Shown: positions 17,925 to 37,720 of the stretch, piece after piece
Layout: every line of letters begins with the position of its first letter
Numbering within the stretch: the first letter of the stretch is position 1
Sequence record: ON528735
Direction: 5' to 3' (one strand)
DNA: 64,000 bases
Origin: Shigella phage ESh25
Program-made: the position numbers and the translations under genes
Notes under the pieces: model-generated
Seen by the model: the letters and a program-made list of their open reading frames with translations, nothing else
Databases searched by the model: none
What the model was told of the DNA's origin: nothing

Positions 17925-18137
17925 TCATTTTTGTCCTGTATTTACTTTATGCCGATGCACGGCCTTAACTTTATCAAGGTATTTTTCAAAATTTCGCAAT
18001 CTAGTATAGTCTGCCGGAGATTGGTTGAGTGATACTTCTCGACGCAAAGCTGAAATGATATTTCCAACTTCCCTACGAATTTCATCTAATTGAAGCACAG
18101 TAAGATTGCGAAGTTGCTTTTCAGTTAATTGTAGCAT
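17925..18137 (-). CDS. hypothetical protein (70 aa)
   Basis: Intact ORF between tk and rI. Confidence 0.5.
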
Positions 18138-18179
18138 ATATACCCCTTTAGTTAGATAAACCTATTTATAACTTTTGCA

Positions 18180-18761
18180 CTAACCGAGCTTTTTAGTTAA
18201 TTCATTCCAATGTTTTCTGCACAAAGAAACATAAATTTCATCACCAATACAGATTTGATTACCTTCTTTAACCGGTGTTCCATCTTCCATTAATCGAGCT
18301 GTCATAATAGCCTTTTTACCACAATGACAAACTGCCTTTAGTTCAATAAGTTTATCTGCAATCGCCAAAAGTTCTTTAGAACCTTCAAATAATTTTCCAG
18401 CGAAATCAGTCCTTAGCCCATAAGCCATAACAGGAACATTATATGTATCAACAATTCGACTTAATTGATGCACCTGTTCAGTTTTTAAAAACTGAGCTTC
18501 ATCTACAAATACACAATGAATATCTTTTTGTGCTTCAGCCCATTTATAGAACTCGAAAATATCCATATCATCTGTAATAATATTCGCTTCCTGTTTAATT
18601 CCAATGCGAGAAACGACTTCACAGACAGAATCACGAGTATCAATAGCAGGCTTAAGAACTAATACACCCATTCCGCGTTCTTTATAATTATGTGCAGCAG
18701 TCAAAAGAGAAGCAGATTTTCCAGCATTCATTGCTGCGTAAGTAAAAATTAAACTCGCCAT
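18180..18761 (-). CDS. tk: thymidine kinase
   Basis: 193 aa, P-loop AMNAGKS and zinc-ribbon cysteines; recalled identity to T4 Tk. Confidence 0.95.
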   Translation of the reverse strand: MASLIFTYAAMNAGKSASLLTAAHNYKERGMGVLVLKPAIDTRDSVCEVVSRIGIKQEANIITDDMDIFEFYKWAEAQKDIHCVFVDEAQFLKTEQVHQLSRIVDTYNVPVMAYGLRTDFAGKLFEGSKELLAIADKLIELKAVCHCGKKAIMTARLMEDGTPVKEGNQICIGDEIYVSLCRKHWNELTKKLG

Positions 18762-18770
18762 ATCACCTTC

Positions 18771-18956
18771 TTAAAGCGTATTCACATAAGCTATTAATTC
18801 GTTTTCTTTCTTATCAAACCGATCAGCAAATTCTTCTTGCTGATCGGGAGATAGCGGGCCGTATTCATCATAAAAGGTGTTTGCTTCTGTATGCTCATCT
18901 AGAAGTTCATGGATAAGCTCAAACAATTTATCTTTTTGTTCTTTACTCAGACTCAT
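18771..18956 (-). CDS. hypothetical protein (61 aa; tk.1 position)
   Basis: Short acidic ORF upstream of tk. Confidence 0.5.
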   Translation of the reverse strand: MSLSKEQKDKLFELIHELLDEHTEANTFYDEYGPLSPDQQEEFADRFDKKENELIAYVNTL

Positions 18957-19126
18957 ATATTAATTTCCAGGAGTTTTAAAATAATTCGCTTTTGCTTAAA
19001 TATTTCCATAGTTAAATGACCAGTATCTTTTTGACCGATTCCAATGGCAAAACCTTTATTGACAGCGAGTTCAATTAAATTATCAAGCTCACGTAACACT
19101 TCATATTGTAACTCAAAACTATTCAT
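18953..19126 (-). CDS. hypothetical small protein (57 aa), below the ORF-track length cut-off
   Basis: ATG at 19126 to TGA at 18953; stop overlaps the next ATG (ATATGA coupling). Confidence 0.35.
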   Translation of the reverse strand: MNSFELQYEVLRELDNLIELAVNKGFAIGIGQKDTGHLTMEIFKQKRIILKLLEINI

Positions 19127-19350
19127 TTCGGTTTACCTTCTTTAACGAAATCAGGATAAGGATAAAATCCTGAATAAAATCCTTCACCTTTATGATTGAT
19201 GCATCCTTTATTAGAACAATAGCACCAATAATCGAAATCACAAGCCATTTCATCATTACATAAAGCAAAAACAACTGGCCATTCACACTTTTCGCAGTGG
19301 GCATTTTTAAGAATACTAGTTTGGCTCATAACCATGTAACCTTTAAACAA
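19123..19350 (-). CDS. hypothetical cysteine-rich protein (75 aa)
   Basis: Ten cysteines including CEKC and CYC pairs, zinc-binding-like. Confidence 0.5.
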   Translation of the reverse strand: MFKGYMVMSQTSILKNAHCEKCEWPVVFALCNDEMACDFDYWCYCSNKGCINHKGEGFYSGFYPYPDFVKEGKPK

Positions 19351-19538
19351 TATTCTTCTACATGTTGTTTACGACCTTTCCTATCAATAAAGGTATATTC
19401 AACGAATGTTCCAATATAGTCTTTATCTACATCATGTGGACTATTAATTGGGCATTTAGTACGGCAAATGCGTTCCCATTGACGAATAATTTCCACTTTG
19501 TTTTTAGGATCAAACGGATGCGGGTAATGTACTTTCAT
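19326..19538 (-). CDS. hypothetical protein (70 aa)
   Basis: Intact short ORF. Confidence 0.45.
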   Translation of the reverse strand: MKVHYPHPFDPKNKVEIIRQWERICRTKCPINSPHDVDKDYIGTFVEYTFIDRKGRKQHVEEYCLKVTWL

Positions 19539-19989
19539 AATCCACCACTATTAAATCAATATCAGGAGTAAACATGTCGATTAATTTAGAAACCTTATCC
19601 CAATCGCCGCCAGCAATACCGCAACCTATGCGTGGAATGTAAATTACTGGTTTAAACAAAAGGGTTTCTGCCTGTAGATTTAATTCTATCATGCAGTTTA
19701 CTAAAGCACCATAATCAAGATTAGGACCCGGTTCGTATTGTGTATACAGGTTATAGCATATACCAAATCCCGTAGGACTATGTTTAAAAACAATAGACAT
19801 ATCGCCTAATTTATCACGAGAACCGTACTCGGTAGTGGTTTTATCTATTTCTAAAATTTTGGGATAGGCTCTTGCTAATTGACCCGCTACGCCAGAGCCC
19901 ATTGTGTGGAAGCAATTGCACCCGTGCGCAATAATATTACCTTGAAGAAATAGGGCGACAATATCGCCCTTGATATATTTTACAATCAT
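19510..19989 (-). CDS. macro-domain-like protein (possible ADP-ribose-processing enzyme)
   Basis: 159 aa with N-terminal GDI...GNIIAHGCNC and glycine-rich GSGVAG motif resembling macro/Appr-1-p folds. Confidence 0.5.
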   Translation of the reverse strand: MIVKYIKGDIVALFLQGNIIAHGCNCFHTMGSGVAGQLARAYPKILEIDKTTTEYGSRDKLGDMSIVFKHSPTGFGICYNLYTQYEPGPNLDYGALVNCMIELNLQAETLLFKPVIYIPRIGCGIAGGDWDKVSKLIDMFTPDIDLIVVDYESTLPASV

Positions 19990-20327
19990 CTAGTACTCAA
20001 TCCTCGATTATAAGAATCTACTAAACGGTCAACCATTGAATGACAAGCGGCTTTATCTTTCTCCTCCGCAACTGAACATTCTAAAGTATTCCACTTTTTA
20101 GCATATCGTTTTAACAATGTATCATTTTTATATCTGCTTGATTTATCTCTTTCTCCGTCTTTATATGCATATATTAATTTCTGCGCAAATTCAGCTTGGC
20201 ATGCTTTATTTTTCCCACAATAATCCGCGGCAGTACGGTTTACATACTCTCTAATTTCAGTATATGATGTATCTGCTAACACAGAAAATGAAATTAATCC
20301 TATACATAAAACCAAAATTTTAGTCAT
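19986..20327 (-). CDS. small secreted/periplasmic protein (113 aa; vs position)
   Basis: N-terminal signal peptide-like segment MTKILVLCIGLISFSVLA. Confidence 0.55.
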   Translation of the reverse strand: MTKILVLCIGLISFSVLADTSYTEIREYVNRTAADYCGKNKACQAEFAQKLIYAYKDGERDKSSRYKNDTLLKRYAKKWNTLECSVAEEKDKAACHSMVDRLVDSYNRGLSTR

Positions 20328-20865
20328 TTACTATTTCCAAAAGTTTATTATTTTTAAGGTAATTAGCCTTTTCTAGGACTTCAGAAGCATATTTAGAACC
20401 TGCTTTAACATTCCATCCCGAATTATAAGAGGATATTGCTTTTCTTATATCGCCCTTATGTATATTTAACCAATAAGAAAGTTCAATGTACGCCCAGGAA
20501 GCTGAATTGGACCGTTTATTCAACATTCTTTTTATTTCAGCATCGGTCATATTATAACCAAGTTCCTTAACTCTTGCTCGCATAGTAGGCAAATAATTTT
20601 GGAACATTCCATAAGCGTGATGCTTTGGTTTAGATTTTAAATTAACTCCGCCAGAGCTTTCTTGCCATAAAATAGCAGCCATTATATGACCTAATCCGCT
20701 CTTGTGGATATTTTTGTGTGTTTTATATTTTCCATCCTTAGAAAATTGTTCCCCGAATTGATACGCGTAACGCATGTTATCGAGTTGGACATTACTGAAA
20801 GTATGCTCGGAGCTATGTGCCATCATTGAAATGGCCAATAGACCAGCGAGTAGTGCTTTTCTCAT
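20320..20865 (-). CDS. periplasmic lytic transglycosylase-like protein (vs.1 position)
   Basis: Signal peptide plus SLT-like QESSGG motif. Confidence 0.6.
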   Translation of the reverse strand: MRKALLAGLLAISMMAHSSEHTFSNVQLDNMRYAYQFGEQFSKDGKYKTHKNIHKSGLGHIMAAILWQESSGGVNLKSKPKHHAYGMFQNYLPTMRARVKELGYNMTDAEIKRMLNKRSNSASWAYIELSYWLNIHKGDIRKAISSYNSGWNVKAGSKYASEVLEKANYLKNNKLLEIVND

Positions 20866-20872
20866 GCTTACC

Positions 20873-21334
20873 TCATTGAGTTTTAATTACTGCTTTAGAA
20901 GCCTTTCCTGGTAAACGACGACTGTTGATAATTGCCATCCTACATTGAAGTGACGGGTTTTTGAACTTCTCATTAGGTTTACAAACCGTAAATCCAAGCC
21001 AAAGATTTCCATCTGTAATTTCCAAACGCCCAGGACGATATTCAACCCCATCAATAAAATCCTCGTCAATGTCAGGACGTGGAGGCATACTCAGGAATTC
21101 ATTAACTTCTAAAACATGGTCTTTTATTTTATGGAATAATTCAAAAACGTATGTCTCATCAATCTCCCGTTGAATTGCGCGATCAAGAAGATGTTGAGAA
21201 TATTTTAGATGAAACGATGAGACCCCTGCTGCTTTTGATGCCTCACGAATCTCATTGTTAATTTGACGAAACTCCGACTCAAAGTGACGACGGAGCTTAT
21301 TTCGACGGATAAAAACTTCTGTGTTGATAGTCAT
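20873..21334 (-). CDS. regB: RegB site-specific endoribonuclease
   Basis: 153 aa; recalled near-identity to T4 RegB; early promoter upstream. Confidence 0.9.
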   Translation of the reverse strand: MTINTEVFIRRNKLRRHFESEFRQINNEIREASKAAGVSSFHLKYSQHLLDRAIQREIDETYVFELFHKIKDHVLEVNEFLSMPPRPDIDEDFIDGVEYRPGRLEITDGNLWLGFTVCKPNEKFKNPSLQCRMAIINSRRLPGKASKAVIKTQ

Positions 21335-21361
21335 GTTATTCTCCTCTTAACTGATAGAAAA

Positions 21362-21391
21362 ATTATACCACAGTCAAGAGGAAAAGTAAAC
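21362..21391 (-). promoter_or_regulatory. T4-type early promoter (-35 GTTTAC, -10 TATAAT)
   Basis: GTTTAC at 21391-21386, TATAAT at 21367-21362. Confidence 0.55.
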
Positions 21392-21393
21392 AG

Positions 21394-21672
21394 TTATTCT
21401 TTAAATCTAATCAATTTATTCATAGACTTTGAAACTTCTGCACGAACCTCATGTAAGTTTTTAAGCTGTTCAAGACGCTGCTCATAGTAAGCAATTTCAT
21501 CTTCTTCGAGACAGTCCTGTGAATCTTCTTTAAGATAACGTGCATAGTCCTGAAAAGCTTTACGGACTACTTCCTGGAAGTCATCAAGACTTTGAATTTT
21601 CTTAGGAGCGGCAGATACACGACGAGGTGCAGTATAATACTCATAACCAAACCCTGCACTTAATTGAGCCAT
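21394..21672 (-). CDS. hypothetical protein (about 92 aa; vs.3 position)
   Basis: ATG at 21672 overlaps the upstream stop. Confidence 0.5.
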
Positions 21673-21935
21673 TAGTATTTTTCCTCTGGTTGGAACACTG
21701 CACGACAAGCCCACATACTGGCTTCTTTGAGTTTCGTTTTAGCAATAGTTAACTGATCGAGGCTTTCAGCATAATTCTTCGCGAGTTCATCATCTTCACA
21801 ATTATCTAGTGCTTCCCAGAATTCATCGTATAAAGCGTCAAAGATAAGTCCTAAACGAACTTCAGCGTCTTTAATAGCATTTACTTTACCGATTTTTTTC
21901 GTCGGTATGTGGCTTATAACCTTTAATATCTTCAA
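21672..21935 (-). CDS. acb2: Vs.4-like protein; candidate anti-CBASS cyclic-oligonucleotide sponge (Acb2-like)
   Basis: 87 aa at the vs.4 position of T4 gene order; T4 Vs.4 is the described Acb2. Confidence 0.5.
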
Positions 21936-22153
21936 TCATATTTGACTTCCTCACCAGTACATAAATCATATTCAACTAAACGAATAGGTTCATGAATGCC
22001 ATATCCTTGAACAGAAATTTCTGTCGTAGGATAAATTCCATTAATATCACCCATATTCCAGGCTTCATTAAATTGCTGTTCGCCTGAATTACTAAACCAC
22101 TCGGCGAAAGCATTTAGCACATCTTTAGAACCTTCAATAATTATCTTTGCCAT
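21932..22153 (-). CDS. hypothetical protein (73 aa; vs.5 position)
   Basis: Intact short ORF. Confidence 0.5.
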   Translation of the reverse strand: MAKIIIEGSKDVLNAFAEWFSNSGEQQFNEAWNMGDINGIYPTTEISVQGYGIHEPIRLVEYDLCTGEEVKYD

Positions 22154-22515
22154 TACAAACTCTCAGTAAAGGTACGAGCAATAACGTCGCGCTGCTGTTC
22201 CGGAGTCAGAGAGTTAAAGCGAACTGCATAACCGGATACACGGATGGTCAGCTGCGGATATTTTTCCGGATGCTTAACTGCATCTTCCAGAGTTTCGCGA
22301 CGCAGAACGTTAACGTTCAGGTGTTGACCACCTTCAATTTTAACTGTAGGCTGTTGCTCAATTTCAATTTCACGGGCATGCAAACCATAGAAAATTTCTG
22401 GGTCTACAAAAGAGTCCTCTTTAAAGGTTTTAGAGACAATAATTCGTGCTTGAATACCATCTTCAAAATAAATAGTACCTTTATGTGTGCCTTCAAGAAT
22501 TTGATATGCTTTCAT
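22153..22515 (-). CDS. autonomous glycyl radical cofactor (GrcA/YfiD-like)
   Basis: C-terminal 60 aa carry the RVSGYAVRF glycyl-radical motif; recalled near-identity to E. coli GrcA C-terminus. Confidence 0.85.
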
Positions 22516-22522
22516 ATAAACC

Positions 22523-22903
22523 TCAATTAGAAAATAAATTTATCCAAGATTGTTCTTTAATTAAAAATGGCTCAGAATCATATGCCATTAAACTTTGGGT
22601 GATTAGTCCTTTAAAAGGCCCATCAATAAATTCCATGGTAAAATATGGAATTTTATTCATTAGCCGTGCATTAGGAGCAGTACACAAAACTCTGCATCCT
22701 TTGAATACGCCTTTTTGTAATTTGTATTGCTTGGGATAAAATTCGCTCAAAATGTTATTATTTGCTAAAATTTCAAAATGATTCACCAATTTATTTTTAA
22801 TAGTTTTTGGCGAAAAATAAAGATATTCGAAAAGCTGAGTGTCTGTCATCATTGCATTCCGATTACGAAAAACTGTGGACGAGTAATACCACCAATGCAA
22901 CAT
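22523..22903 (-). CDS. hypothetical protein (126 aa; vs.7 position)
   Basis: Intact ORF. Confidence 0.5.
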
Positions 22904-23436
22904 TTAATATTACAGCAGCAGTGTACAGTGTCAATATGGACACTATAAATCTTATCCATATCAGGAGATTTGACAGGCTCATCAATTATATACAAAATTC
23001 GCGAAAGCGATAAACCTCTGAACTTGCTTCCTTTATTACCAATAAAACTGCGCACAGAATCAGTAAATAAACGAAAACGTATATCATCATTAGAATAACG
23101 CGAAAATTCCTTTTTAATATTATCTGCGGAAATTTTAGCGTAAGCTGAAGTATTAGAAAGAACAATAACTGTTCCACCGTCATACAACCAATTAGCGGCA
23201 AAATTAGTTACTGCAGTTGATTTACCAGATTGGCGTCCACCATCTAGTCGAAGTGTACAATATTGTTTAAGCAAGTCTTCAAATGGTGGGATATAATCGT
23301 TTTTACAAATTTCTTCTACTCTAGCATCAGAATGGTGTGTAAAAGCATTCATCAGGGATAGATAAGGACCAGTTAAAAATGTTCTCATTTTATTCTCTCT
23401 AAATTTGGGCCATTCCATGGCGCATGAATTGTCCAT
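22849..23436 (-). CDS. small P-loop NTPase-like protein (GRQSGKST); start uncertain (alternative ATG at 23388)
   Basis: Walker A GGRQSGKST and hhhhDEP Walker-B-like motif. Confidence 0.5.
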   Translation of the reverse strand: MDNSCAMEWPKFRENKMRTFLTGPYLSLMNAFTHHSDARVEEICKNDYIPPFEDLLKQYCTLRLDGGRQSGKSTAVTNFAANWLYDGGTVIVLSNTSAYAKISADNIKKEFSRYSNDDIRFRLFTDSVRSFIGNKGSKFRGLSLSRILYIIDEPVKSPDMDKIYSVHIDTVHCCCNIKCCIGGITRPQFFVIGMQ

Positions 23437-23533
23437 TTCTGTATTTACCCATTACCGCACTTGGGCTCGACCTTATTACAGGTTGGCGGGAATCCCTCAC
23501 AGAATCATGAGGTCCAGGTTATTCCCATGTTAT

Positions 23534-23950
23534 TTAAATGTAAATATTTTTGCCGTAATACTTATACCAGTGTGGCTTCATTAAAATTTTTTCATCGAGT
23601 CGTTGTTGACTCAACTTAATAGCTGATTTGCATGGATTATAATCATTTTTCCATTCTACTGGAATATCGCTGATGTCAGGAACTTCAGTATCTTTTATAC
23701 TGAACCCGCGTTTTAAGCATTCCGTTATAATGTCCGATTGACGCTTTCGCAAAAATTCTAACTTATCGTAAAAGAAAGTAACATGACCAGAACCTAAAAT
23801 AAATTTAGAAGATATTTTAAAATCTTTAACGCGCTTACCGTTTGCCACATGCTTACGAACTATACCAAAAACACGCGGCAATTCACGGTATTCTGCGATT
23901 AAATGTTGATCAGCAAGTTCAGATACTAAAGTCAAATTAATACGAGTCAT
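23534..23950 (-). CDS. denV: endonuclease V (pyrimidine dimer DNA glycosylase)
   Basis: 138 aa; recalled near-identity to T4 endo V. Confidence 0.95.
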
Positions 23951-23974
23951 TTTATCCCTCCAAGTAACTGTGAA

Positions 23975-24005
23975 TATACTATCACAATTCTAGGAGAAAG
24001 TAAAC
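23975..24005 (-). promoter_or_regulatory. T4-type early promoter (-35 GTTTAC, -10 TAGTAT)
   Basis: GTTTAC at 24005-24000, TAGTAT at 23980-23975, in the 60-bp e-denV gap. Confidence 0.5.
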
Positions 24006-24540: not shown

Positions 24541-24996
24541 TTAAAAGAGGCTGTTCATTATTCGGTAAAGTGAAGGACCCATCACATATTGCCACTGAGT
24601 ACGAGGAATAAGAGCAAAAGCATCCATCTCTGGAATCATAACACCATCTTTATTTTCAAAATAAGACTCGCAATGGCAATTTCTAAACATCTCATGCTCT
24701 ACTGGAATCGTATAATAAAACAGCTGTAAGTCTTTATTACTAGAATATTTAAATACACCTAGGTCTTCTAGAAGGTCTGGATTATAATTGCTAAAACCGG
24801 TCTCTTCTAAGCATTCTCTTCGTGCTGCATCTAGTGCGCTCAAATCAGAATTTTCTACACGGCCTTTTGGAATATCCCAGCGATGTGCCATCATTCCAGG
24901 CTTACGAGAACCAGTAACCCGTCCCATGAATAAATCTTTATCTTCTGTCATAAAGATAATACCAGCTGATAATGTTTTCATTTTAATTTCCTGCAT
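24541..24996 (-). CDS. nudE: Nudix hydrolase
   Basis: 151 aa with Nudix box (RRECLEETG). Confidence 0.9.
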   Translation of the reverse strand: MQEIKMKTLSAGIIFMTEDKDLFMGRVTGSRKPGMMAHRWDIPKGRVENSDLSALDAARRECLEETGFSNYNPDLLEDLGVFKYSSNKDLQLFYYTIPVEHEMFRNCHCESYFENKDGVMIPEMDAFALIPRTQWQYVMGPSLYRIMNSLF

Positions 24997-31418: not shown

Positions 31419-31596
31419 CTTTAGAAATTTTATCCATAACGATAGCGATTAAACCAATTAAAAATGCTACTACAAGCGAAAACACATTTTCTGCTGTAGT
31501 TAATAATCCGCATATAAATCCAACAAACATTGAAAAACTAAAAGCAGAAGCAGAAATTGCAATAGCAACATTTCGAATTAATTCACAGCGTTTCAT
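31411..31596 (-). CDS. small membrane protein (about 61 aa)
   Basis: ATG at 31596 after promoter/leader; two hydrophobic helices. Confidence 0.5.
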   Translation of the reverse strand: MKRCELIRNVAIAISASAFSFSMFVGFICGLLTTAENVFSLVVAFLIGLIAIVMDKISKGE

Positions 31597-31636
31597 TTTA
31601 TTCTCCTCAGTAGTTGATAGGGTAATAGTATCACTA

Positions 31637-31666
31637 CTAAAACCCCGTGTAAACAACTTTGTGAAA
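31637..31666 (-). promoter_or_regulatory. T4-type early promoter (copy 1 of duplicated cassette)
   Basis: GTTTAC at 31666-31661, TACTAT at 31642-31637; about 35 nt upstream identical to the copy at 31956-32010. Confidence 0.55.
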
Positions 31667-31924
31667 TTATTTTAAATCTTCTAATCGTTTCTTCATCTTA
31701 GAACCATTTTTAGCGATTTCTCCTGCGTCAGAGCATAATGCTAAAAGTGCTTTAACTTTAGTTTGGTCTCCTTTAAAAGACGAAGGATCGACTGCAGCAG
31801 CAAGTTCTTTAATACGAGAGAAAAGACGCTCAGCTTCAGCTAAAGCCATTCCAAGCTTTACTTCCATACCATGAGAAGATTCAGTGATAATAGTTTCTGT
31901 AGCAAACTCTTTATAAGTTTTCAT
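31667..31924 (-). CDS. putative head internal protein with capsid-targeting-like N-terminus (MKTYKEFATE)
   Basis: N-terminus closely resembles the T4 IP capsid-targeting sequence MKTYQEFIAE; 85 aa; sits between duplicated promoter cassettes. Confidence 0.55.
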   Translation of the reverse strand: MKTYKEFATETIITESSHGMEVKLGMALAEAERLFSRIKELAAAVDPSSFKGDQTKVKALLALCSDAGEIAKNGSKMKKRLEDLK

Positions 31925-31955
31925 TTTTATTTTCCTAATTAATTTTGATGAGGTA

Positions 31956-31985
31956 ATAGTATCACTACCTCATCAGTGTGTAAAC
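31956..31985 (-). promoter_or_regulatory. T4-type early promoter (copy 2 of duplicated cassette)
   Basis: GTTTAC at 31985-31980, TACTAT at 31961-31956; -10 lies in the loop of a 9-bp inverted repeat GATGAGGTA/TACCTCATC. Confidence 0.55.
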
Positions 31986-31997
31986 AACTTTGTGAAA

Positions 31998-32682
<685 letters not shown>

Positions 32683-32683
<1 letters not shown>

Positions 32684-33408
32684 TATAGTACCTTTAGTGT
32701 ATTTTTAATTTTAGAAAAAAGTTCTTCAAGAGAACCATCGTTTGTAATTACTAAATCGCCATCACGAATTGGCAATCCAGCTTCTGTAATATGAGTATCA
32801 TTGGATTTTTGACCAGGACGAACTACATGAATTACTGTAGCACCCATCGCCCTAGCCGCATCCATTTCATGATCTTGACGAGTATCAGGAACGATATAAT
32901 AATCATAACCTGAGTTAAATTTATCAAGATAATCTAAAGCAAATAATTTTACCCAATACATGCGGTCGAAGTTATTAACAATCAAATCCGTACCTAGGGC
33001 TTGCATCAGACGACGGACTGACCATTGATCTTCAATATTATTTATAACGTCAATAATCTTGTTAAATGCTACGGAATTAACTGATTCTTGTCCTTCGTCA
33101 TCAAAAACAAACACACCCTTAATTGGGCTTTTACCATTAAGATAGCAAAATGCTTGTTCCATAATCGTGATTACTTCTAATTTAGTCAGATTTAAATTAG
33201 TCTCACGATCATAGTCAATTCCTTCAAACTCTTTACGAGTTAAGCAAGGATAGTCAGTGTTTGCTGCAAATACTCCCCATGCATAAGCCAATGCATCCTT
33301 AATAGGACCAGCAAGTTGGTATTTAACTGCAGAATAATTACTCATGATAAAATCTGCAGTAGTATCTTTTCCACTACGCTTTACACCACTTAAAAAGATT
33401 AGTTTCAT
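32683..33408 (-). CDS. 1: deoxynucleoside monophosphate kinase
   Basis: 241 aa from ATG 33408 (GAGGAG upstream); P-loop GVKRSGKDT; recalled near-identity to T4 gp1. Confidence 0.93.
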
Positions 33409-33457
33409 ATGTTTCTCCTCAAATTTAATTAAGATTATAACACACAAAACTGAAGCA

Positions 33458-33988
33458 TTAAACTTCTGCTATAATTTTTCCATCTTTTTCTACTTGAAAA
33501 TACGTATAAGGAATCGTTGCTGTACATACTAAAGCTGGGTCTGAATCTTCCGTGTAGCTAAATTCTACTTCAGACAGGTCAGAAACCCAAGGCTTATAAA
33601 AATTTATTGACATCACGATTTCAGTTTTACTATTATCTAAAATGTAAAGCGTAATGTATTCAGGACCTGTTTTTTGGGCAGTATTTTCGCCTGTAAGATA
33701 GTTACTAGTTCCTAGCATCCATTCATACATTCCTATCCACGACTTAAGTTCTTCATCAACTATAAATCTCACAATGAGTGGATCATACTCAAATGTAACA
33801 CCTGGACGTTGTGCTCGGCCCAGTCCAAACGGCCCAGTCACGGTATCAGTAACAGGTATTCTAATTCCTGGAATAGGAACTGACTGAGCGTTTAAAGTAA
33901 AAGCAGATGTAGTATTACTATGTGGTATTGATACTACAAAGTTAGTTGTATTTGCTTGGTTAAAAATTTGTTGCAGAGCTTGCGACAT
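33458..33988 (-). CDS. 3: gp3, tail tube terminator / sheath stabiliser
   Basis: 176 aa from ATG 33988 (GAGGAA upstream); T4 gene order 1-3-2-4. Confidence 0.85.
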   Translation of the reverse strand: MSQALQQIFNQANTTNFVVSIPHSNTTSAFTLNAQSVPIPGIRIPVTDTVTGPFGLGRAQRPGVTFEYDPLIVRFIVDEELKSWIGMYEWMLGTSNYLTGENTAQKTGPEYITLYILDNSKTEIVMSINFYKPWVSDLSEVEFSYTEDSDPALVCTATIPYTYFQVEKDGKIIAEV

Positions 33989-34094
33989 ATATTCCTCATA
34001 ATGCTTTATAACTGTTGGTGGTATAATGGGTCTAAGTCCCTTCCATTCAATTCCATTTAGAACAAACAACAGAAAAGAATGGAAGATAATAGAA

Positions 34095-34919
34095 TTAAAT
34101 ATTTGACCAGACTTTGTTTGCAGAGAAACGTTTTCCTTTTGAAACGAACTGCTGAAGTGGCATCAACACAACGTTCGCCCAGTCTTTCGGGGCGATTTCA
34201 ACAAGGCTACCCATAATATTACCAGGTATATATGCCTTAATCATTTGGTCTGCACCCCTAAATCCTTTCACTTGACTCCAATCAATTTTTAATTTCGTTT
34301 TATTAGTAATAGTAGGTGTATTTGAATATTGCTTTAAAAGCTCTTCTAGGAATTGCTGACGAGCTTTAGGTGGAATATAGTGCAAGTTCAATCCGTACAT
34401 TAAATTATGCTTACCTAAACCAAGGTAAATTATTAAAGGAAATTTATCCCAGTAAGGAAGAGTTTCCTTGTGTTTAGCATCATAAGCAAAAGCATATATT
34501 CGTCCCGGCTGCGGGCGAACAACTTTATGTCCTTTTACTTGCTTAATAGTTTCAGCAAACCACTTTCTGGTTTTATTATTAATTGCTGCACCTTCATTAC
34601 GAATTTTATCACGCAATGTTTGCCTGAATGAATTTATCATAAGCAGTTGTCTTTCTTGCTTATTGAGTTTATTCATTGGTTTTGATTCAAGCTTTTGAAT
34701 CTTTTCAGCCGTTTTAATTCCTGAAGCATATTTTGACATTGCCGAAGTAAACGTAGAGTATTTAATTCCTCTTTCTTCAGCAAATTGCTTTCCTGACATT
34801 CCTTTTGCTTTGGCCTTTTTATATTCAAGACCTATCTGAATCCATTTCTTTTCGTTTAATGATTGCTTAACCTTTGGAACTTGGGGAGTGCTTTCATTAA
34901 TTATTTGAAAAATAGCCAT
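34095..34919 (-). CDS. 2: gp2, DNA end protector protein
   Basis: 274 aa; T4 gene order and size. Confidence 0.85.
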
Positions 34920-35371
34920 TATGCCCCCTTAAAGCCAAGAGCTCGTAATCCATCTTCTGTTAGAATTCTAAATTTTATTCCACGCTTTTCAGCTAAAGAT
35001 TGCGCTGCTTTCCATTTGTCAGTATTAACGGAATATGTATAAATTTCATTCATAAATCTTTTCTTCGCTGCAGTTGTTAGATGTGCTGGTTTAACTGGTG
35101 GTTGTGTTTCTTTTTTAGGTTTTATTTCAATAAAAAATTCTTGTCCAGAAGAATCTTTCATCCAAATATCCATGAAGTATCTACGTTTTTTCCCTTCTGC
35201 ATTACAAAAATAAGGAATTACTGCTGTTTCACTACCCCATGCAATAATTTCTGGATTTTTATCTAACCATTCAAAAAAGAATTTTTCCCAATTTGATCTA
35301 TACGTAATTTTTTTAGGGTCACCTCTATACTTTGATATATTTTTAGGAACCCATTTTCCAGAATATGCCAT
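34919..35371 (-). CDS. 4: gp4, head completion protein
   Basis: 150 aa; T4 gene order and size. Confidence 0.85.
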
Positions 35372-35382
35372 TGGATTCTCCT

Positions 35383-35390
35383 TATAAATA
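35383..35390 (+). promoter_or_regulatory. T4 late promoter (TATAAATA) for gene 53
   Basis: Exact TATAAATA 29 nt upstream of the gene 53 ATG. Confidence 0.6.
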
Positions 35391-35418
35391 GATAATATAT
35401 TTATAAACAGGAGGGCCC

Positions 35419-36009
35419 ATGCTCTTTACATTTTTTGATCCGATTGAATATGCGGCCAAAACGGTGAATAAAAACGCGCCGACTATTCCTATGACAGATA
35501 TTTTTAGAAACTATAAAGACTATTTTAAACGCGCTCTTGCGGGATACCGCTTACGTACTTATTATATTAAAGGTTCACCACGCCCGGAAGAATTAGCAAA
35601 TACTATATATGGAAATCCACAGTTGTATTGGGTTTTATTGATGTGTAATGATAATTATGATCCATATTATGGATGGATTACTTCACAAGAAGCAGCTTAT
35701 CAAGCATCTATACAAAAATACAAAAATGTAGGTGGAGACCAAATAGTATATCATGTAAATGAGAATGGTGAAAAATTTTATAATTTAATATCATACGATG
35801 ATAATCCATATGTTTGGTATGACAAAGGTGATAAAGCTAGAAAATATCCTCAATATGAAGGAGCACTTGCTGCGGTCGATACGTATGAAGCTGCTGTTCT
35901 TGAAAATGAAAAACTTCGTCAAATAAAAATAATAGCAAAATCAGACATTAATTCATTTATGAACGACCTTATACGTATAATGGAGAAATCTTATGGAAAT
36001 GATAAGTAA
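35419..36009 (+). CDS. 53: gp53, baseplate wedge protein
   Basis: 196 aa; position upstream of gene 5. Confidence 0.9.
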   Translation: MLFTFFDPIEYAAKTVNKNAPTIPMTDIFRNYKDYFKRALAGYRLRTYYIKGSPRPEELANTIYGNPQLYWVLLMCNDNYDPYYGWITSQEAAYQASIQKYKNVGGDQIVYHVNENGEKFYNLISYDDNPYVWYDKGDKARKYPQYEGALAAVDTYEAAVLENEKLRQIKIIAKSDINSFMNDLIRIMEKSYGNDK

Positions 36010-37720
36010 TAACCTTAATTGGTTTGTTGGTGTTGTTGAAGATAGAATGGACCCATTAAAATTAGGTCGTGTTCGTGTTCGTGTGGTTGGTCTACATCCA
36101 CCTCAAAGAGCACAAGGCGATGTAATGGGTATTCCAACTGAAAAATTACCATGGATGTCAGTTATTCAACCTATAACTTCTGCAGCGATGTCAGGAATTG
36201 GAGGTTCTGTTACAGGGCCAGTAGAAGGAACTAGAGTTTATGGTCATTTTTTAGACAAATGGAAAACTAATGGAATTGTCCTTGGCACGTATGGTGGAAT
36301 AGTTCGCGAAAAACCGAATAGACTTGAAGGATTTTCTGATCCAACTGGGCAATATCCTAGACGTTTAGGAAATGATACGAACGTATTAAACCAAGGCGGA
36401 GAAGTAGGATATGATTCCTCTTCTAACGTTATTCAAGATAGTAACTTAGACACCGCAATAAATCCCGATGATAGACCACTATCAGAGATTCCAACCGATG
36501 ATAATCCAAATATGTCAATGGCTGAAATGCTTCGCCGTGATGAAGGATTAAGATTAAAAGTTTATTGGGATACCGAAGGATATCCGACAATTGGTATTGG
36601 TCATCTTATCATGAAGCAGCCAGTTCGTGATATGGCTCAAATTAATAAAGTTTTATCAAAACAAGTTGGTCGTGAAATTACAGGAAATCCAGGTTCTATT
36701 ACAATGGAAGAGGCGACGACTTTATTTGAGCGTGATTTGGCTGATATGCAACGTGACATTAAATCACATTCTAAAGTAGGACCAGTCTGGCAAGCTGTCA
36801 ACCGTTCTCGTCAAATGGCGTTAGAAAATATGGCATTTCAGATGGGTGTTGGTGGTGTAGCTAAATTTAACACAATGTTAACTGCTATGTTAGCAGGAGA
36901 TTGGGAAAAAGCGTATAAAGCCGGTCGTGATTCATTGTGGTATCAACAAACAAAGGGTCGTGCATCCCGTGTTACCATGATTATTCTTACGGGAAATTTG
37001 GAATCATATGGTGTTGAAGTGAAAACACCAGCTAGGTCTTTATCTGCAATGGCTGCTACTGTAGCTAAATCTTCTGACCCTGCTGATCCTCCTATTCCAA
37101 ATGACTCGAGAATTTTATTCAAAGAACCAGTTTCTTCATATAAAGGTGAGTATCCTTATGTGCATACGATGGAAACTGAAAGTGGACATATCCAAGAATT
37201 TGATGATACCCCTGGGCAAGAACGATACAGATTAGTTCATCCAACTGGAACTTATGAAGAAGTATCACCGTCAGGAAGAAGAACAAGAAAAACTGTTGAT
37301 AATTTGTATGATATAACAAATGCTGATGGTAATTTTTTGGTAGCCGGTGATAAAAAGACTAACGTCGGTGGATCAGAAATTTATTACAACATGGATAATC
37401 GTTTACATCAAATCGATGGAAGCAATACAATATTTGTACGTGGCGATGAAACTAAGACGGTTGAAGGTAATGGAACTATCCTAGTTAAAGGTAATGTTAC
37501 TATTGTAGTTGAAGGTAATGCTGACATTACAGTTAAAGGAGATGCTACCACTTTAGTTGAAGGTAATCAAACTAATACAGTAAATGGAAATCTTTCTTGG
37601 AAAGTTGCTGGGACAGTTGATTGGGACGTTGGTGGTGATTGGACAGAAAAAATGGCATCTATGAGTTCTATTTCATCTGGTCAATACACAATTGATGGAT
37701 CGAGGATTGACATTGGCTAA
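35993..37720 (+). CDS. 5: gp5, baseplate hub / tail-associated lysozyme
   Basis: 575 aa; OB-fold N-terminus, T4-lysozyme-like domain (MAEMLRRDEGLRLKVYWDTEGYPTIGIGH), C-terminal VxGxxxx beta-helix repeats. Confidence 0.97.
   Translation: MEMISNNLNWFVGVVEDRMDPLKLGRVRVRVVGLHPPQRAQGDVMGIPTEKLPWMSVIQPITSAAMSGIGGSVTGPVEGTRVYGHFLDKWKTNGIVLGTYGGIVREKPNRLEGFSDPTGQYPRRLGNDTNVLNQGGEVGYDSSSNVIQDSNLDTAINPDDRPLSEIPTDDNPNMSMAEMLRRDEGLRLKVYWDTEGYPTIGIGHLIMKQPVRDMAQINKVLSKQVGREITGNPGSITMEEATTLFERDLADMQRDIKSHSKVGPVWQAVNRSRQMALENMAFQMGVGGVAKFNTMLTAMLAGDWEKAYKAGRDSLWYQQTKGRASRVTMIILTGNLESYGVEVKTPARSLSAMAATVAKSSDPADPPIPNDSRILFKEPVSSYKGEYPYVHTMETESGHIQEFDDTPGQERYRLVHPTGTYEEVSPSGRRTRKTVDNLYDITNADGNFLVAGDKKTNVGGSEIYYNMDNRLHQIDGSNTIFVRGDETKTVEGNGTILVKGNVTIVVEGNADITVKGDATTLVEGNQTNTVNGNLSWKVAGTVDWDVGGDWTEKMASMSSISSGQYTIDGSRIDIG

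What the first reader, a model, noticed from the sequence alone, without database searches (positions are those of the whole stretch)
19510..19989. Macro-domain-like protein in the tk-vs accessory cluster
The 159-aa product shows macro (ADP-ribose binding/processing) hallmarks. T-even phages ADP-ribosylate host proteins, and several host defences use ADP-ribose chemistry, so this could reverse or degrade ADP-ribose-based modifications or signals.
Basis: inference. Interest (0 to 1): 0.4.

Follow-up and report, generated by a model that had tools for sequence, protein, structure and literature searches.

The report
Phage macrodomain Tk.4/AdfM, anti-DarT2 enzyme
This is the T4-family gene tk.4, a real macrodomain (ADP-ribose-removing) enzyme; knocking it out of phage T4 was recently shown to make T4 sensitive to the bacterial DarTG2 defence, so the finding is correct but already known.

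Summary
The 159-aa ORF at 19510..19989 (minus strand) is real. It lies between tk.3 and vs in a Tequatrovirus genome that is 99% identical to Shigella phage CM8. It passes Pfam's Macro threshold. AlphaFold2 gives pLDDT 94, and the model matches TARG1, Poa1p, BT1257 and DarG macrodomains at TM 0.72-0.76.

It is the positional orthologue of T4 tk.4. A 2025 preprint named that gene adfM: it was the only significant hit in a transposon screen on a DarTG2 host, and a clean knockout sensitised T4 to DarTG2. Nobody has tested the enzyme activity of Tk.4.

Two refinements come from this work:
- **Divergent allele.** The window protein is only 58% identical to T4 Tk.4. It sits in a divergent island (37-68% DNA identity) between flanks that are 92-100% identical. 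This allele is at least as common as T4's in sequenced phages.
- **Different subclass from DarG.** The catalytic lysine of DarG and TARG1 is replaced by an invariant glutamine (Q84). The same is true of Streptomyces SCO6735, where Gln85 is essential for removing ADP-ribose from thymidine. PhiKZ's protein, also named AdfM, is a true DarG-type macrodomain and barely resembles Tk.4.

The gene is already known, and interest is low.

The parts
19510..19989 (-). tk.4 / adfM coding sequence, 159 aa, a single macrodomain with no extra domain
   Evidence: ORF. Pfam Macro 32 bits against cut-off 22. PHROG 335 E=1.2e-71. AF2 pLDDT 94.1, with ordered secondary structure from residue 2 to 151 and only residues 156-159 below pLDDT 50. 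Foldseek top hits are macrodomains. Named tk.4 in related records.
19963..19968 (-). Codons G8-D9 of the N-terminal 'KGD' motif. In macrodomains the Asp contacts the adenine (general knowledge of the fold).
   Evidence: G8 and D9 are invariant across window Tk.4, T4 Tk.4, SCO6735, BT1257 and three more distant homologues, one of them confirmed bacterial.
19912..19926 (-). Codons H22-G-C-N25-C26, the loop that faces the distal ribose. N25 aligns with PhiKZ gp104 N23 and with the Asn of the DarG VNTVN motif. G23 aligns with SCO6735 Val25.
   Evidence: H22, G23, N25 and C26 are invariant in 87 family members. Alignments. The N23A mutation reduces PhiKZ AdfM activity (PMC13309987). The backbone of SCO6735 Val25 is proposed to hold the catalytic water (PMC9411070).
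19885..19899 (-). Codons G31-S-G33-V-A35, the first glycine-rich (phosphate-binding) loop
   Evidence: G33 and A35 are invariant and G31 nearly invariant in the family. G31 and G33 are invariant across all macrodomains aligned.
19738..19752 (-). Codons N80-L-Y-T-Q84. Q84 occupies the position of the catalytic lysine of DarG (K80) and TARG1 (K84), and of the essential Gln85 of SCO6735.
   Evidence: N80, Y82 and Q84 are invariant in 87 homologues. Column equivalence is shown. SCO6735 numbering was derived from the 5e3b chain sequence, which carries a 20-residue tag offset. Q85A and Q85E abolish SCO6735 activity.
19600..19635 (-). Codons P119-RIGCGIAGGD-W130, the second glycine-rich (diphosphate-binding) loop. 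It is nearly the same as PRIGCGLAGGTW in SCO6735 and PRIGCGLAGGKW in BT1257, and unlike PPLGVGNGGLDW in DarG.
   Evidence: P119, G122, G124 and W130 are invariant in the family. Alignments.
19536..19882 (.). Divergent allelic island relative to phage T4 (37-68% DNA identity), with conserved flanks
   Evidence: Sliding 60-nt identity of window against T4. The proteins are 58% identical. vs, vs.1 and most of tk.3 are 92-100% identical.
19986..20327 (-). vs (modifier of valyl-tRNA synthetase), the upstream neighbour. Its stop overlaps the tk.4 start (ATGA), which suggests co-transcription and translational coupling.
   Evidence: ORF list and sequence. Annotation in related records.
19326..19538 (-). 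tk.3, the downstream neighbour. Its start lies 29 nt inside the 3' end of tk.4.
   Evidence: In T4 the same junction is a 4-nt overlap.

Best explanation
The gene encodes a stand-alone macrodomain ADP-ribosyl glycohydrolase, the Tk.4/AdfM orthologue of a T4-like phage. When the host toxin DarT2 attaches ADP-ribose to thymidine N3 in TNTC motifs of single-stranded phage DNA, replication stalls. Tk.4 binds the ADP-ribose in the canonical macrodomain cleft and cleaves the ribose-thymine bond, restoring a replicable template. The cleft is formed by G8-D9, H22-N25, G31-G33 and P119-W130. Catalysis most likely follows the lysine-independent route proposed for Streptomyces SCO6735. In that route a glutamine (here Q84) positions the substrate, and a backbone-held water starts the reaction. 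This differs from the lysine-dependent chemistry of DarG and TARG1. What is shown: the macro fold and motif conservation (here); the anti-DarTG2 phenotype of the T4 orthologue (literature); and that Gln-type macrodomains can remove ADP-ribose from thymidine (literature, SCO6735). What is inferred: that this 58%-identical allele does the same, and that Tk.4 acts by hydrolysis.
For: Fold: Pfam Macro above threshold, AF2 pLDDT 94.1, Foldseek top hits TARG1/Poa1p/BT1257/DarG. Best NCBIfam and PADLOC models are DarG, both weak. Orthology to T4 tk.4: same slot between tk.3 and vs, 58% identity over 155 aa at E=1e-70, the first 38 nt identical, and flanks 92-100% identical. Function of the orthologue: tk.4 was the only significant HIDEN-SEQ hit on a DarTG2 host, and the clean knockout became DarTG2-sensitive. 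T4 lacking adfA and adfN stays DarTG2-resistant, so another factor was expected. Mechanism: Q84 is invariant in 87 homologues and aligns with DarG K80, TARG1 K84 and SCO6735 Q85. SCO6735 removes dT-ADPr efficiently, rescues cells from DarT, and is inactivated by Q85A/E. By sequence the window protein is closer to BT1257 (41.5 bits) and SCO6735 (35.0) than to Mtb DarG (26.7). A different phage macrodomain, PhiKZ gp104, removes DarT2-made ADP-ribose from DNA in vitro, so the strategy works in phages.
Against: No biochemical assay exists for any Tk.4 allele; the preprint itself says only that enzymatic removal 'seems likely'. The tested protein is the T4 allele, and 42% of residues differ here. 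Tk.4 is acidic (pI 5.0) and lacks the longer lysine-bearing loop (K89, K93) that was suggested to help SCO6735 grip ssDNA. However, PhiKZ gp104 is equally acidic (pI 5.05) and is active on DNA. The N-terminal H-x-C-N-C motif and the strong sequence and structure matches to Poa1p also fit small-molecule ADP-ribose chemistry. The key genetic evidence is a preprint.
Confidence: 0.75

Rival explanations
1. It is a small-molecule ADP-ribose-processing enzyme, as the legacy 'phosphatase' annotation implies. It would act as an ADP-ribose-1''-phosphate phosphatase or O-acetyl-ADP-ribose deacetylase like yeast Poa1p, clearing NAD-derived metabolites during infection.
For: Poa1p is among the best sequence hits (1.6e-9) and structure hits (TM 0.76). 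The H22-x-C-N-C motif matches Poa1p's H23-S-C-N-C (alignment), and H23A and S30A Poa1p mutants exist as PDB entries. Public records call the protein 'phosphatase', 'A1pp phosphatase motif' or 'Poa1p-like'.
Against: The only phenotype known for the orthologue is sensitivity to DarTG2, a DNA ADP-ribosylating system. The sequence match to Poa1p covers mainly the N-terminal half (residues 3-79). The diphosphate loop and the N..Q motif match SCO6735/BT1257 instead. No source of ADP-ribose-1''-phosphate is known in T4 infection (my own knowledge, not tested).
Confidence: 0.07
2. Its main substrates are ADP-ribosylated proteins or RNA. These could be Glu/Asp-linked mono-ADP-ribose placed by host defence transferases, or marks placed by the phage's own Alt/ModA/ModB enzymes. 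DNA repair would then be a side activity.
For: SCO6735 and TARG1, both close structural relatives, also de-modify proteins. T-even phages carry ADP-ribosyltransferases (established knowledge; references listed).
Against: The T4 transposon screen found tk.4 depleted specifically with DarTG2. Alt, ModA and ModB modify arginine, which macrodomains are not known to cleave (established knowledge).
Confidence: 0.07
3. It neutralises DarT2 without catalysis, either by binding the toxin directly (interaction-inhibition) or by sequestering ADP-ribose-containing molecules.
For: Catalytically dead SCO6735, DarG and TARG1 all inhibit DarT in vitro, SCO6735 most strongly. Toxin binding would also give a reason for allelic diversification.
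Against: Every active-site motif is invariant across 87 homologues spanning 38-97% identity, as expected for an enzyme. The protein lacks DarG's C-terminal DarT-binding domain: it is 159 aa and matches only positions 2-142 of the 338-position DarG model.
Confidence: 0.05
4. The window allele has drifted to a different specificity than T4 AdfM, for example other ADP-ribosylated bases or RNA, and no longer counters DarTG2.
For: Only 58% identity to the tested allele, concentrated in an island with conserved flanks.
Against: All 14 family-invariant residues are kept. The model is confidently a complete macrodomain. The allele sits in the same slot and is common, with 312 phage records at 90% identity or more. 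This argues for a maintained, equivalent function.
Confidence: 0.06

Closest known systems
T4 Tk.4 = AdfM (anti-DarT factor Macrodomain), bioRxiv 10.1101/2025.11.20.689424
   Same: Same genomic slot between tk.3 and vs. Same size and fold. Identical first 38 nt. All family-invariant residues shared.
   Different: Only 58% amino-acid identity. There is a 4-residue C-terminal extension that creates a 29-nt overlap with tk.3. This allele is untested.
Streptomyces coelicolor SCO6735 (PDB 5e3b) and Bacteroides BT1257 (2afc/2fg1): Gln-type ALC1-like macrodomains
   Same: Closest solved relatives by sequence. They share H-x-C-N, N-x-x-x-Q and PRIGCG-x-AGG-x-W motifs. The glutamine sits at the catalytic-lysine position. 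SCO6735 hydrolyses dT-ADPr and rescues cells from DarT. All are free-standing single-domain proteins.
   Different: About 25-27% identity. Tk.4 has a loop after Q84 that is 5 residues shorter and lacks K89/K93. SCO6735 K34 aligns with S32. Tk.4 is acidic (pI 5.0 against 9.7). Tk.4 is phage-encoded, whereas SCO6735 is a chromosomal stress-response gene.
DarG (DarG2) antitoxin macrodomain of DarTG2 (PDB 5m3i, 5m31)
   Same: Same fold (TM 0.73-0.75). Best NCBIfam and PADLOC model. Presumed same substrate, ADP-ribosyl-thymidine in ssDNA.
   Different: Catalytic K80 is replaced by Q84. The diphosphate loop differs. There is no C-terminal DarT-binding domain. It scores 27.7 bits against a family cut-off of 250.
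PhiKZ gp104 'AdfM' of nucleus-forming phages (Cell Rep 2026, PMC13309987)
   Same: A phage-encoded stand-alone macrodomain that counters DarTG2. It has the same name and is acidic.
   Different: A different macrodomain subclass. gp104 keeps the DarG FPTK motif and scores 90.7 bits to Mtb DarG but only 10.5 bits to window Tk.4. gp104 has been tested biochemically; Tk.4 has not.
Human TARG1/OARD1 and yeast Poa1p
   Same: Top structural matches. TARG1 also cleaves dT-ADPr (PMC12879935). Poa1p shares the H-x-C-N-C motif.
   Different: The TARG1 K84/D125 dyad is absent (Q84, and A126 at the D125 column). The Poa1p sequence match is confined mostly to the N-terminal half.

Membership tests
Macro domain superfamily (Pfam PF01661) | Profile score above Pfam's gathering threshold | tested here: met
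   32 bits against cut-off 22, covering profile positions 2-117 of 118
Macro domain superfamily (Pfam PF01661) | Three-layer alpha/beta/alpha macro fold | tested here: met
   AF2 pLDDT 94.1, pTM 0.89. All 50 Foldseek matches listed are macrodomains or proteins designed on one, best TM 0.72-0.76.
Macro domain superfamily (Pfam PF01661) | Binds ADP-ribose | not testable with these tools
   Both glycine-rich loops and the KGD Asp are conserved, but binding needs an experiment.
Tk.4/AdfM of Tevenvirinae | Positional orthology: gene between tk.3 and vs, on the same strand | tested here: met
Tk.4/AdfM of Tevenvirinae | Full-length homology to T4 Tk.4 | tested here: met
   58% identity over 155 aa with no gaps, E=1e-70. 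Scores 223 bits against the family profile, compared with 205 for T4 Tk.4.
Tk.4/AdfM of Tevenvirinae | Protects the phage against DarTG2 | not testable with these tools
   Shown only for the T4 allele
Gln-type ALC1-like macrodomains (SCO6735/BT1257) | Glutamine at the position of the DarG/TARG1 catalytic lysine | tested here: met
   Q84 is invariant in 87 homologues and aligned with SCO6735 Q85 and the BT1257 Gln
Gln-type ALC1-like macrodomains (SCO6735/BT1257) | PRIGCG-x-AGG-x-W diphosphate loop and H-x-C-N loop | tested here: met
   PRIGCGIAGGDW and HGCN in the window, against PRIGCGLAGGTW and HVCN in SCO6735
Gln-type ALC1-like macrodomains (SCO6735/BT1257) | Extended lysine-bearing mobile loop after the Gln (K89, K93), described as the extra element of the SCO6735 subclass | tested here: not met
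   The Tk.4 loop is 5 residues shorter and has no lysines (QYEPGPN against QHGMKTGSKGAP) (feature described)
DarG antitoxin (NCBIfam NF048014) | Equivalog score at or above the curated cut-off | tested here: not met
   27.7 bits against cut-off 250
DarG antitoxin (NCBIfam NF048014) | Catalytic lysine (K80) in the FPTK motif | tested here: not met
   Q84 lies at that column
DarG antitoxin (NCBIfam NF048014) | C-terminal DarT-binding domain and an adjacent darT gene | tested here: not met
   159 aa, matching only positions 2-142 of the 338-position model. The neighbours are vs and tk.3.
TARG1/OARD1 | Lys84/Asp125 catalytic dyad | tested here: not met
   Q84 at the K84 column, and A126 at the D125 column (PRIGCGIAGG against PRIGCGLDRL)
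Poa1p-like ADP-ribose-1''-phosphate phosphatase | His23 and Ser30 of the H-S-C-N-C-N-G-S motif (residues mutated in PDB 6lfs and 6lft) | tested here: inconclusive
   H22 is present and T29 aligns with S30 (alignment). The sequence match covers mainly residues 3-79. Phosphatase activity is not testable here.

The most novel reading that the evidence does not exclude
T4-like phages recruited their anti-DarT2 enzyme from the free-standing, lysine-less SCO6735/BT1257-type macrodomains, not from the DarG antitoxin. It is therefore a mechanistically distinct invention, independent of PhiKZ's 'AdfM'. The sharply bounded allelic island in tk.4 would reflect ongoing selection on something beyond product hydrolysis. 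One possibility is direct binding of different DarT2 variants. Another is a shifted substrate range, such as other ADP-ribosylated bases or RNA.
Probability: 0.15. Interest if true: 0.5.

Novelty: already known. Interest (0 to 1): 0.2.

Why it matters
DNA ADP-ribosylation by DarT toxins is a widespread antiphage defence, and phage enzymes that erase the mark help decide host range. Knowing that this common Tequatrovirus allele is an AdfM orthologue helps predict which therapeutic or model phages resist DarTG2. The finding adds no new biology beyond the 2025 preprint. Two modest refinements are useful to specialists. First, Tk.4-type AdfM is a Gln-type macrodomain like SCO6735, not a DarG-like lysine enzyme, so DarG-derived catalytic mutants and inhibitors may not transfer to it. 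Second, two unrelated macrodomain subclasses now share the name AdfM.

Tried and rejected
- **Promoter and terminator scan, 18000-24000.** It found 21 promoter-like sites against 23.4 expected, so it says nothing about expression.
- **'Stolen DarG antitoxin' origin.** I considered this and rejected it. The NCBIfam DarG score is 27.7 against a cut-off of 250, the catalytic lysine is absent, there is no C-terminal domain, and the one bacterial homologue whose neighbourhood I examined (Pelagimonas, 40% identity) is a stand-alone gene among housekeeping genes with no darT next to it.
- **Equivalence with PhiKZ AdfM.** Rejected. BLASTP finds only a 23-residue match at 23 bits, and phmmer gives 10.5 bits.
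- **Duplicated ipI/ip5/57B block.** I checked whether the duplication annotated in phage CM8 is present in the window. It is not; only a 69-nt repeat was found.
- **Survey of viral NAD/ADP-ribose systems (PMC9503650).** My term search of it for T4/T4-like phages, DarG and ALC1 returned nothing on a T4 macrodomain.
- **Overall charge as a proxy for DNA binding.** Uninformative: Tk.4 is acidic, but so is the DNA-active PhiKZ gp104.
- **Not done.** I did not run the large representative-protein search, a second structure prediction or the viral fold library, because the answer was already clear.

Full report
**1. The observation**

The minus strand carries an ATG-to-stop ORF of 159 codons at exactly 19510..19989. 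Its ATG overlaps the stop codon of the upstream gene as ATGA (sequence). Its last 29 nt overlap the start of the next ORF downstream.

The window is a Tequatrovirus genome. The stretch 18000-21500 is 99.1% identical to Shigella phage CM8, and 473 phage records cover at least 80% of it. In annotated relatives the gene order is tk, small tk.x ORFs, tk.3, tk.4, vs, vs.1, regB, and this ORF is tk.4.

**2. Is it a macrodomain?**

Yes, by four independent lines of evidence:
- **Pfam.** PF01661 Macro scores 32 bits against a curated cut-off of 22 and covers almost the whole profile.
- **PHROGs.** The protein falls in family 335, annotated 'phosphatase', at E=1.2e-71.
- **Solved structures by sequence.** A single-sequence search finds only macrodomains at significant E-values: BT1257, yeast Poa1p, SCO6735, M. 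tuberculosis DarG and human TARG1. A profile built from 87 homologues sharpens these to between 4e-19 and 2e-10.
- **Predicted structure.** An AlphaFold2 model built on that alignment has mean pLDDT 94.1 and pTM 0.89. Only the last four residues are disordered. Foldseek against the PDB returns TARG1, Poa1p, BT1257 and DarG macrodomains at TM 0.72-0.76 with probability 1.00.

**3. What is already known about this gene**

The T4 reference record already annotates tk.4 as 'phosphatase; contains A1pp phosphatase motif'. Other records call it 'macro domain protein', 'Poa1p-like family protein' or 'RNase III inhibitor'.

The decisive paper is a 2025 preprint on transposon mapping of T4 (bioRxiv 10.1101/2025.11.20.689424). 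It infected a host expressing the DarTG2 toxin-antitoxin defence and found tk.4 as the single significant conditionally essential gene. A clean tk.4 knockout became sensitive to DarTG2. The authors renamed the gene adfM, for anti-DarT factor Macrodomain. They state that enzymatic removal of ADP-ribose from DNA 'seems likely' but did not assay it.

This fits earlier work showing that T4 lacking both adfA and adfN stays DarTG2-resistant, so a further factor had to exist (PMC11825919). DarT2 ADP-ribosylates thymidine in ssDNA, and the modified DNA cannot be replicated.

**4. How the window's gene relates to the tested T4 gene**

It is the positional orthologue but a divergent allele. The proteins are 58% identical over 155 residues without gaps.

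A 60-nt sliding comparison of window and T4 DNA shows a sharply bounded island:
- vs and vs.1: 92-100% identity.
- Most of tk.3: 93-97% identity.
- The first ~100 nt of tk.4: 80-92% identity, with the first 38 nt identical.
- The interior of tk.4 (19536-19882): 37-68% identity.

This pattern indicates an allele exchanged by recombination rather than gradual drift.

Both alleles are common. In the phage collection, 312 records carry the window type at 90% identity or more. For the T4 type, 224 records are at 90% or more, and a further 159 are at 80-90%. More distant homologues occur in about 2,800 phage records across many genera. All 14 residues that are invariant in the 87-sequence family alignment are by construction present in the window protein, and the T4 protein keeps them too.

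**5. Mechanism**

Aligning the window and T4 proteins with verified PDB sequences shows that Tk.4 is not a DarG-type enzyme. The Mtb DarG and T. aquaticus DarG sequences were checked. BT1257 and SCO6735 were checked.

The catalytic lysine of DarG (K80, in FPTK) and of TARG1 (K84) is replaced by Gln84, which is invariant in the family. The TARG1 partner Asp125 is also absent. The same glutamine is found in BT1257 and in Streptomyces SCO6735 (ANMIGQ). With the 20-residue tag offset of chain 5e3b, that residue is Gln85.

The SCO6735 paper reports the following (PMC9411070):
- The enzyme removes thymidine-linked ADP-ribose more efficiently than DarG or TARG1.
- It rescues E. coli from DarT.
- It is completely inactivated by Q85A or Q85E.
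- It probably uses a water molecule held by the backbone of Val25. That residue aligns with G23 here.

Tk.4 also shares the H-x-C-N loop and the PRIGCG-x-AGG-x-W diphosphate loop with SCO6735 and BT1257, but not with DarG (PPLGVGNGGLDW). In pairwise scores the window protein is nearest to BT1257 (41.5 bits) and SCO6735 (35.0), ahead of Mtb DarG (26.7).

My best explanation is that Tk.4 binds the ADP-ribose on modified thymidine and hydrolyses the ribose-base bond by the Gln-type, lysine-independent route. Two differences from SCO6735 temper this. The loop after the Gln is five residues shorter and lacks the lysines proposed to hold ssDNA, and the protein is acidic (pI 5.0 against 9.7). The DNA-active PhiKZ enzyme is equally acidic, so overall charge is not an argument against DNA activity.

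**6. Two different proteins share the name AdfM**

A 2026 Cell Reports paper independently named PhiKZ gp104 'AdfM'. It showed in vitro that gp104 removes DarT2-made ADP-ribose from an oligonucleotide and that the N23A mutation weakens it (PMC13309987).

I translated the published gene sequence. gp104 keeps the DarG FPTK motif. It scores 90.7 bits to Mtb DarG but only 10.5 bits to the window Tk.4, and BLASTP finds only a 23-residue match between the two. The conserved Asn does align (N25 here).

The two 'AdfM' proteins are therefore different macrodomain subclasses, apparently recruited separately. The one bacterial relative of Tk.4 whose neighbourhood I inspected is a stand-alone gene among housekeeping genes with no darT neighbour. 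Tk.4 also fails the DarG equivalog test (27.7 against 250 bits) and has no C-terminal DarT-binding domain. The 'orphan antitoxin' picture that fits T4's NADAR protein AdfN is not supported for Tk.4.

**7. Rival explanations**

- **Small-molecule 'phosphatase' (Poa1p-like).** It rests on good N-terminal similarity and the H-x-C-N-C motif. It does not explain the DarTG2 phenotype. I give it about 0.07.
- **Protein or RNA de-ADP-ribosylation as the main role.** This is possible as a side activity, since SCO6735 and TARG1 have it. The T4 screen found tk.4 depleted only with DarTG2. About 0.07.
- **Non-catalytic toxin binding.** It has a precedent in SCO6735, but the active site is invariant across the family. 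About 0.05.
- **Loss or shift of specificity in this allele.** It cannot be excluded without an experiment. About 0.06.

**8. Verdict**

The specific function is already in the literature for the orthologue, and identical or near-identical copies of this protein are in hundreds of public phage records. I rate novelty as 'already known' and interest as low (0.2).

The residual value lies in three points: the Gln-type classification, the non-equivalence of the two AdfM proteins, and the allelic island. Each is testable with simple biochemistry and an allele swap.

Noticed in passing
window 19952-19970 (within tk.4 codons 7-13): A near-perfect hairpin, AGGGCGATATTGTCGCCCT (8-bp stem, 3-nt loop), sits in the 5' end of tk.4. 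It lies inside a 38-nt block that is identical to T4 even though the rest of the gene has diverged to 37-68% identity. It could be chance codon choice in the conserved KGDIVAL motif, an RNA element, or a recombination boundary.
   Followed up: partly
window 18957-19325: The stretch between tk.2 and tk.3 has no blastn match to T4. Instead of T4's tk.1, the window carries small RB32ORF110c/111c-type ORFs (18953-19126 and 19123-19329/19350). This is a second hyperplastic spot next to the tk.4 island.
   Followed up: partly
window 19510-19538: tk.4 ends 29 nt inside tk.3, whereas T4 has a 4-nt ATGA overlap. The window allele's four extra C-terminal residues (PASV, pLDDT below 50) create the overlap.
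   Followed up: yes
window 24541-24996 (-): A 151-aa ORF on the same strand, 4.5 kb downstream, lies at the position of the gene annotated 'nudix hydrolase' in phage CM8. It is probably T4's e.1/NudE, which is reported to hydrolyse ADP-ribose. It could dispose of the ADP-ribose released by Tk.4. This is speculation and was not tested.
   Followed up: no
window 31614-31682 and 31945-32013: A 69-nt direct repeat (86% identity, 331 nt apart) with a conserved GTGTAAACAACTTTGTGAAATTATTTTAAATC core. By position it falls about 1 kb downstream of the region matching CM8's tRNA cluster, among small hypothetical ORFs before the internal-protein genes. It is possibly a repeated regulatory element.
   Followed up: no
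L005 35151-37273 (Shigella phage CM8 record): The CM8 annotation shows a tandem repeat of the ipI/ip5/57B (acb1-like) gene block. No such duplication was found in the corresponding part of the window (31500-37000).
   Followed up: partly
L003 5001-5459 (Pelagimonas phthalicica chromosome): A bacterial homologue of Tk.4 (40% identity, with the HGCNCFHTMG and YTQ motifs conserved) is a stand-alone gene among housekeeping genes with no DarT neighbour. This suggests a free-living Tk.4-like macrodomain clade in bacteria whose role is unknown.
   Followed up: partly
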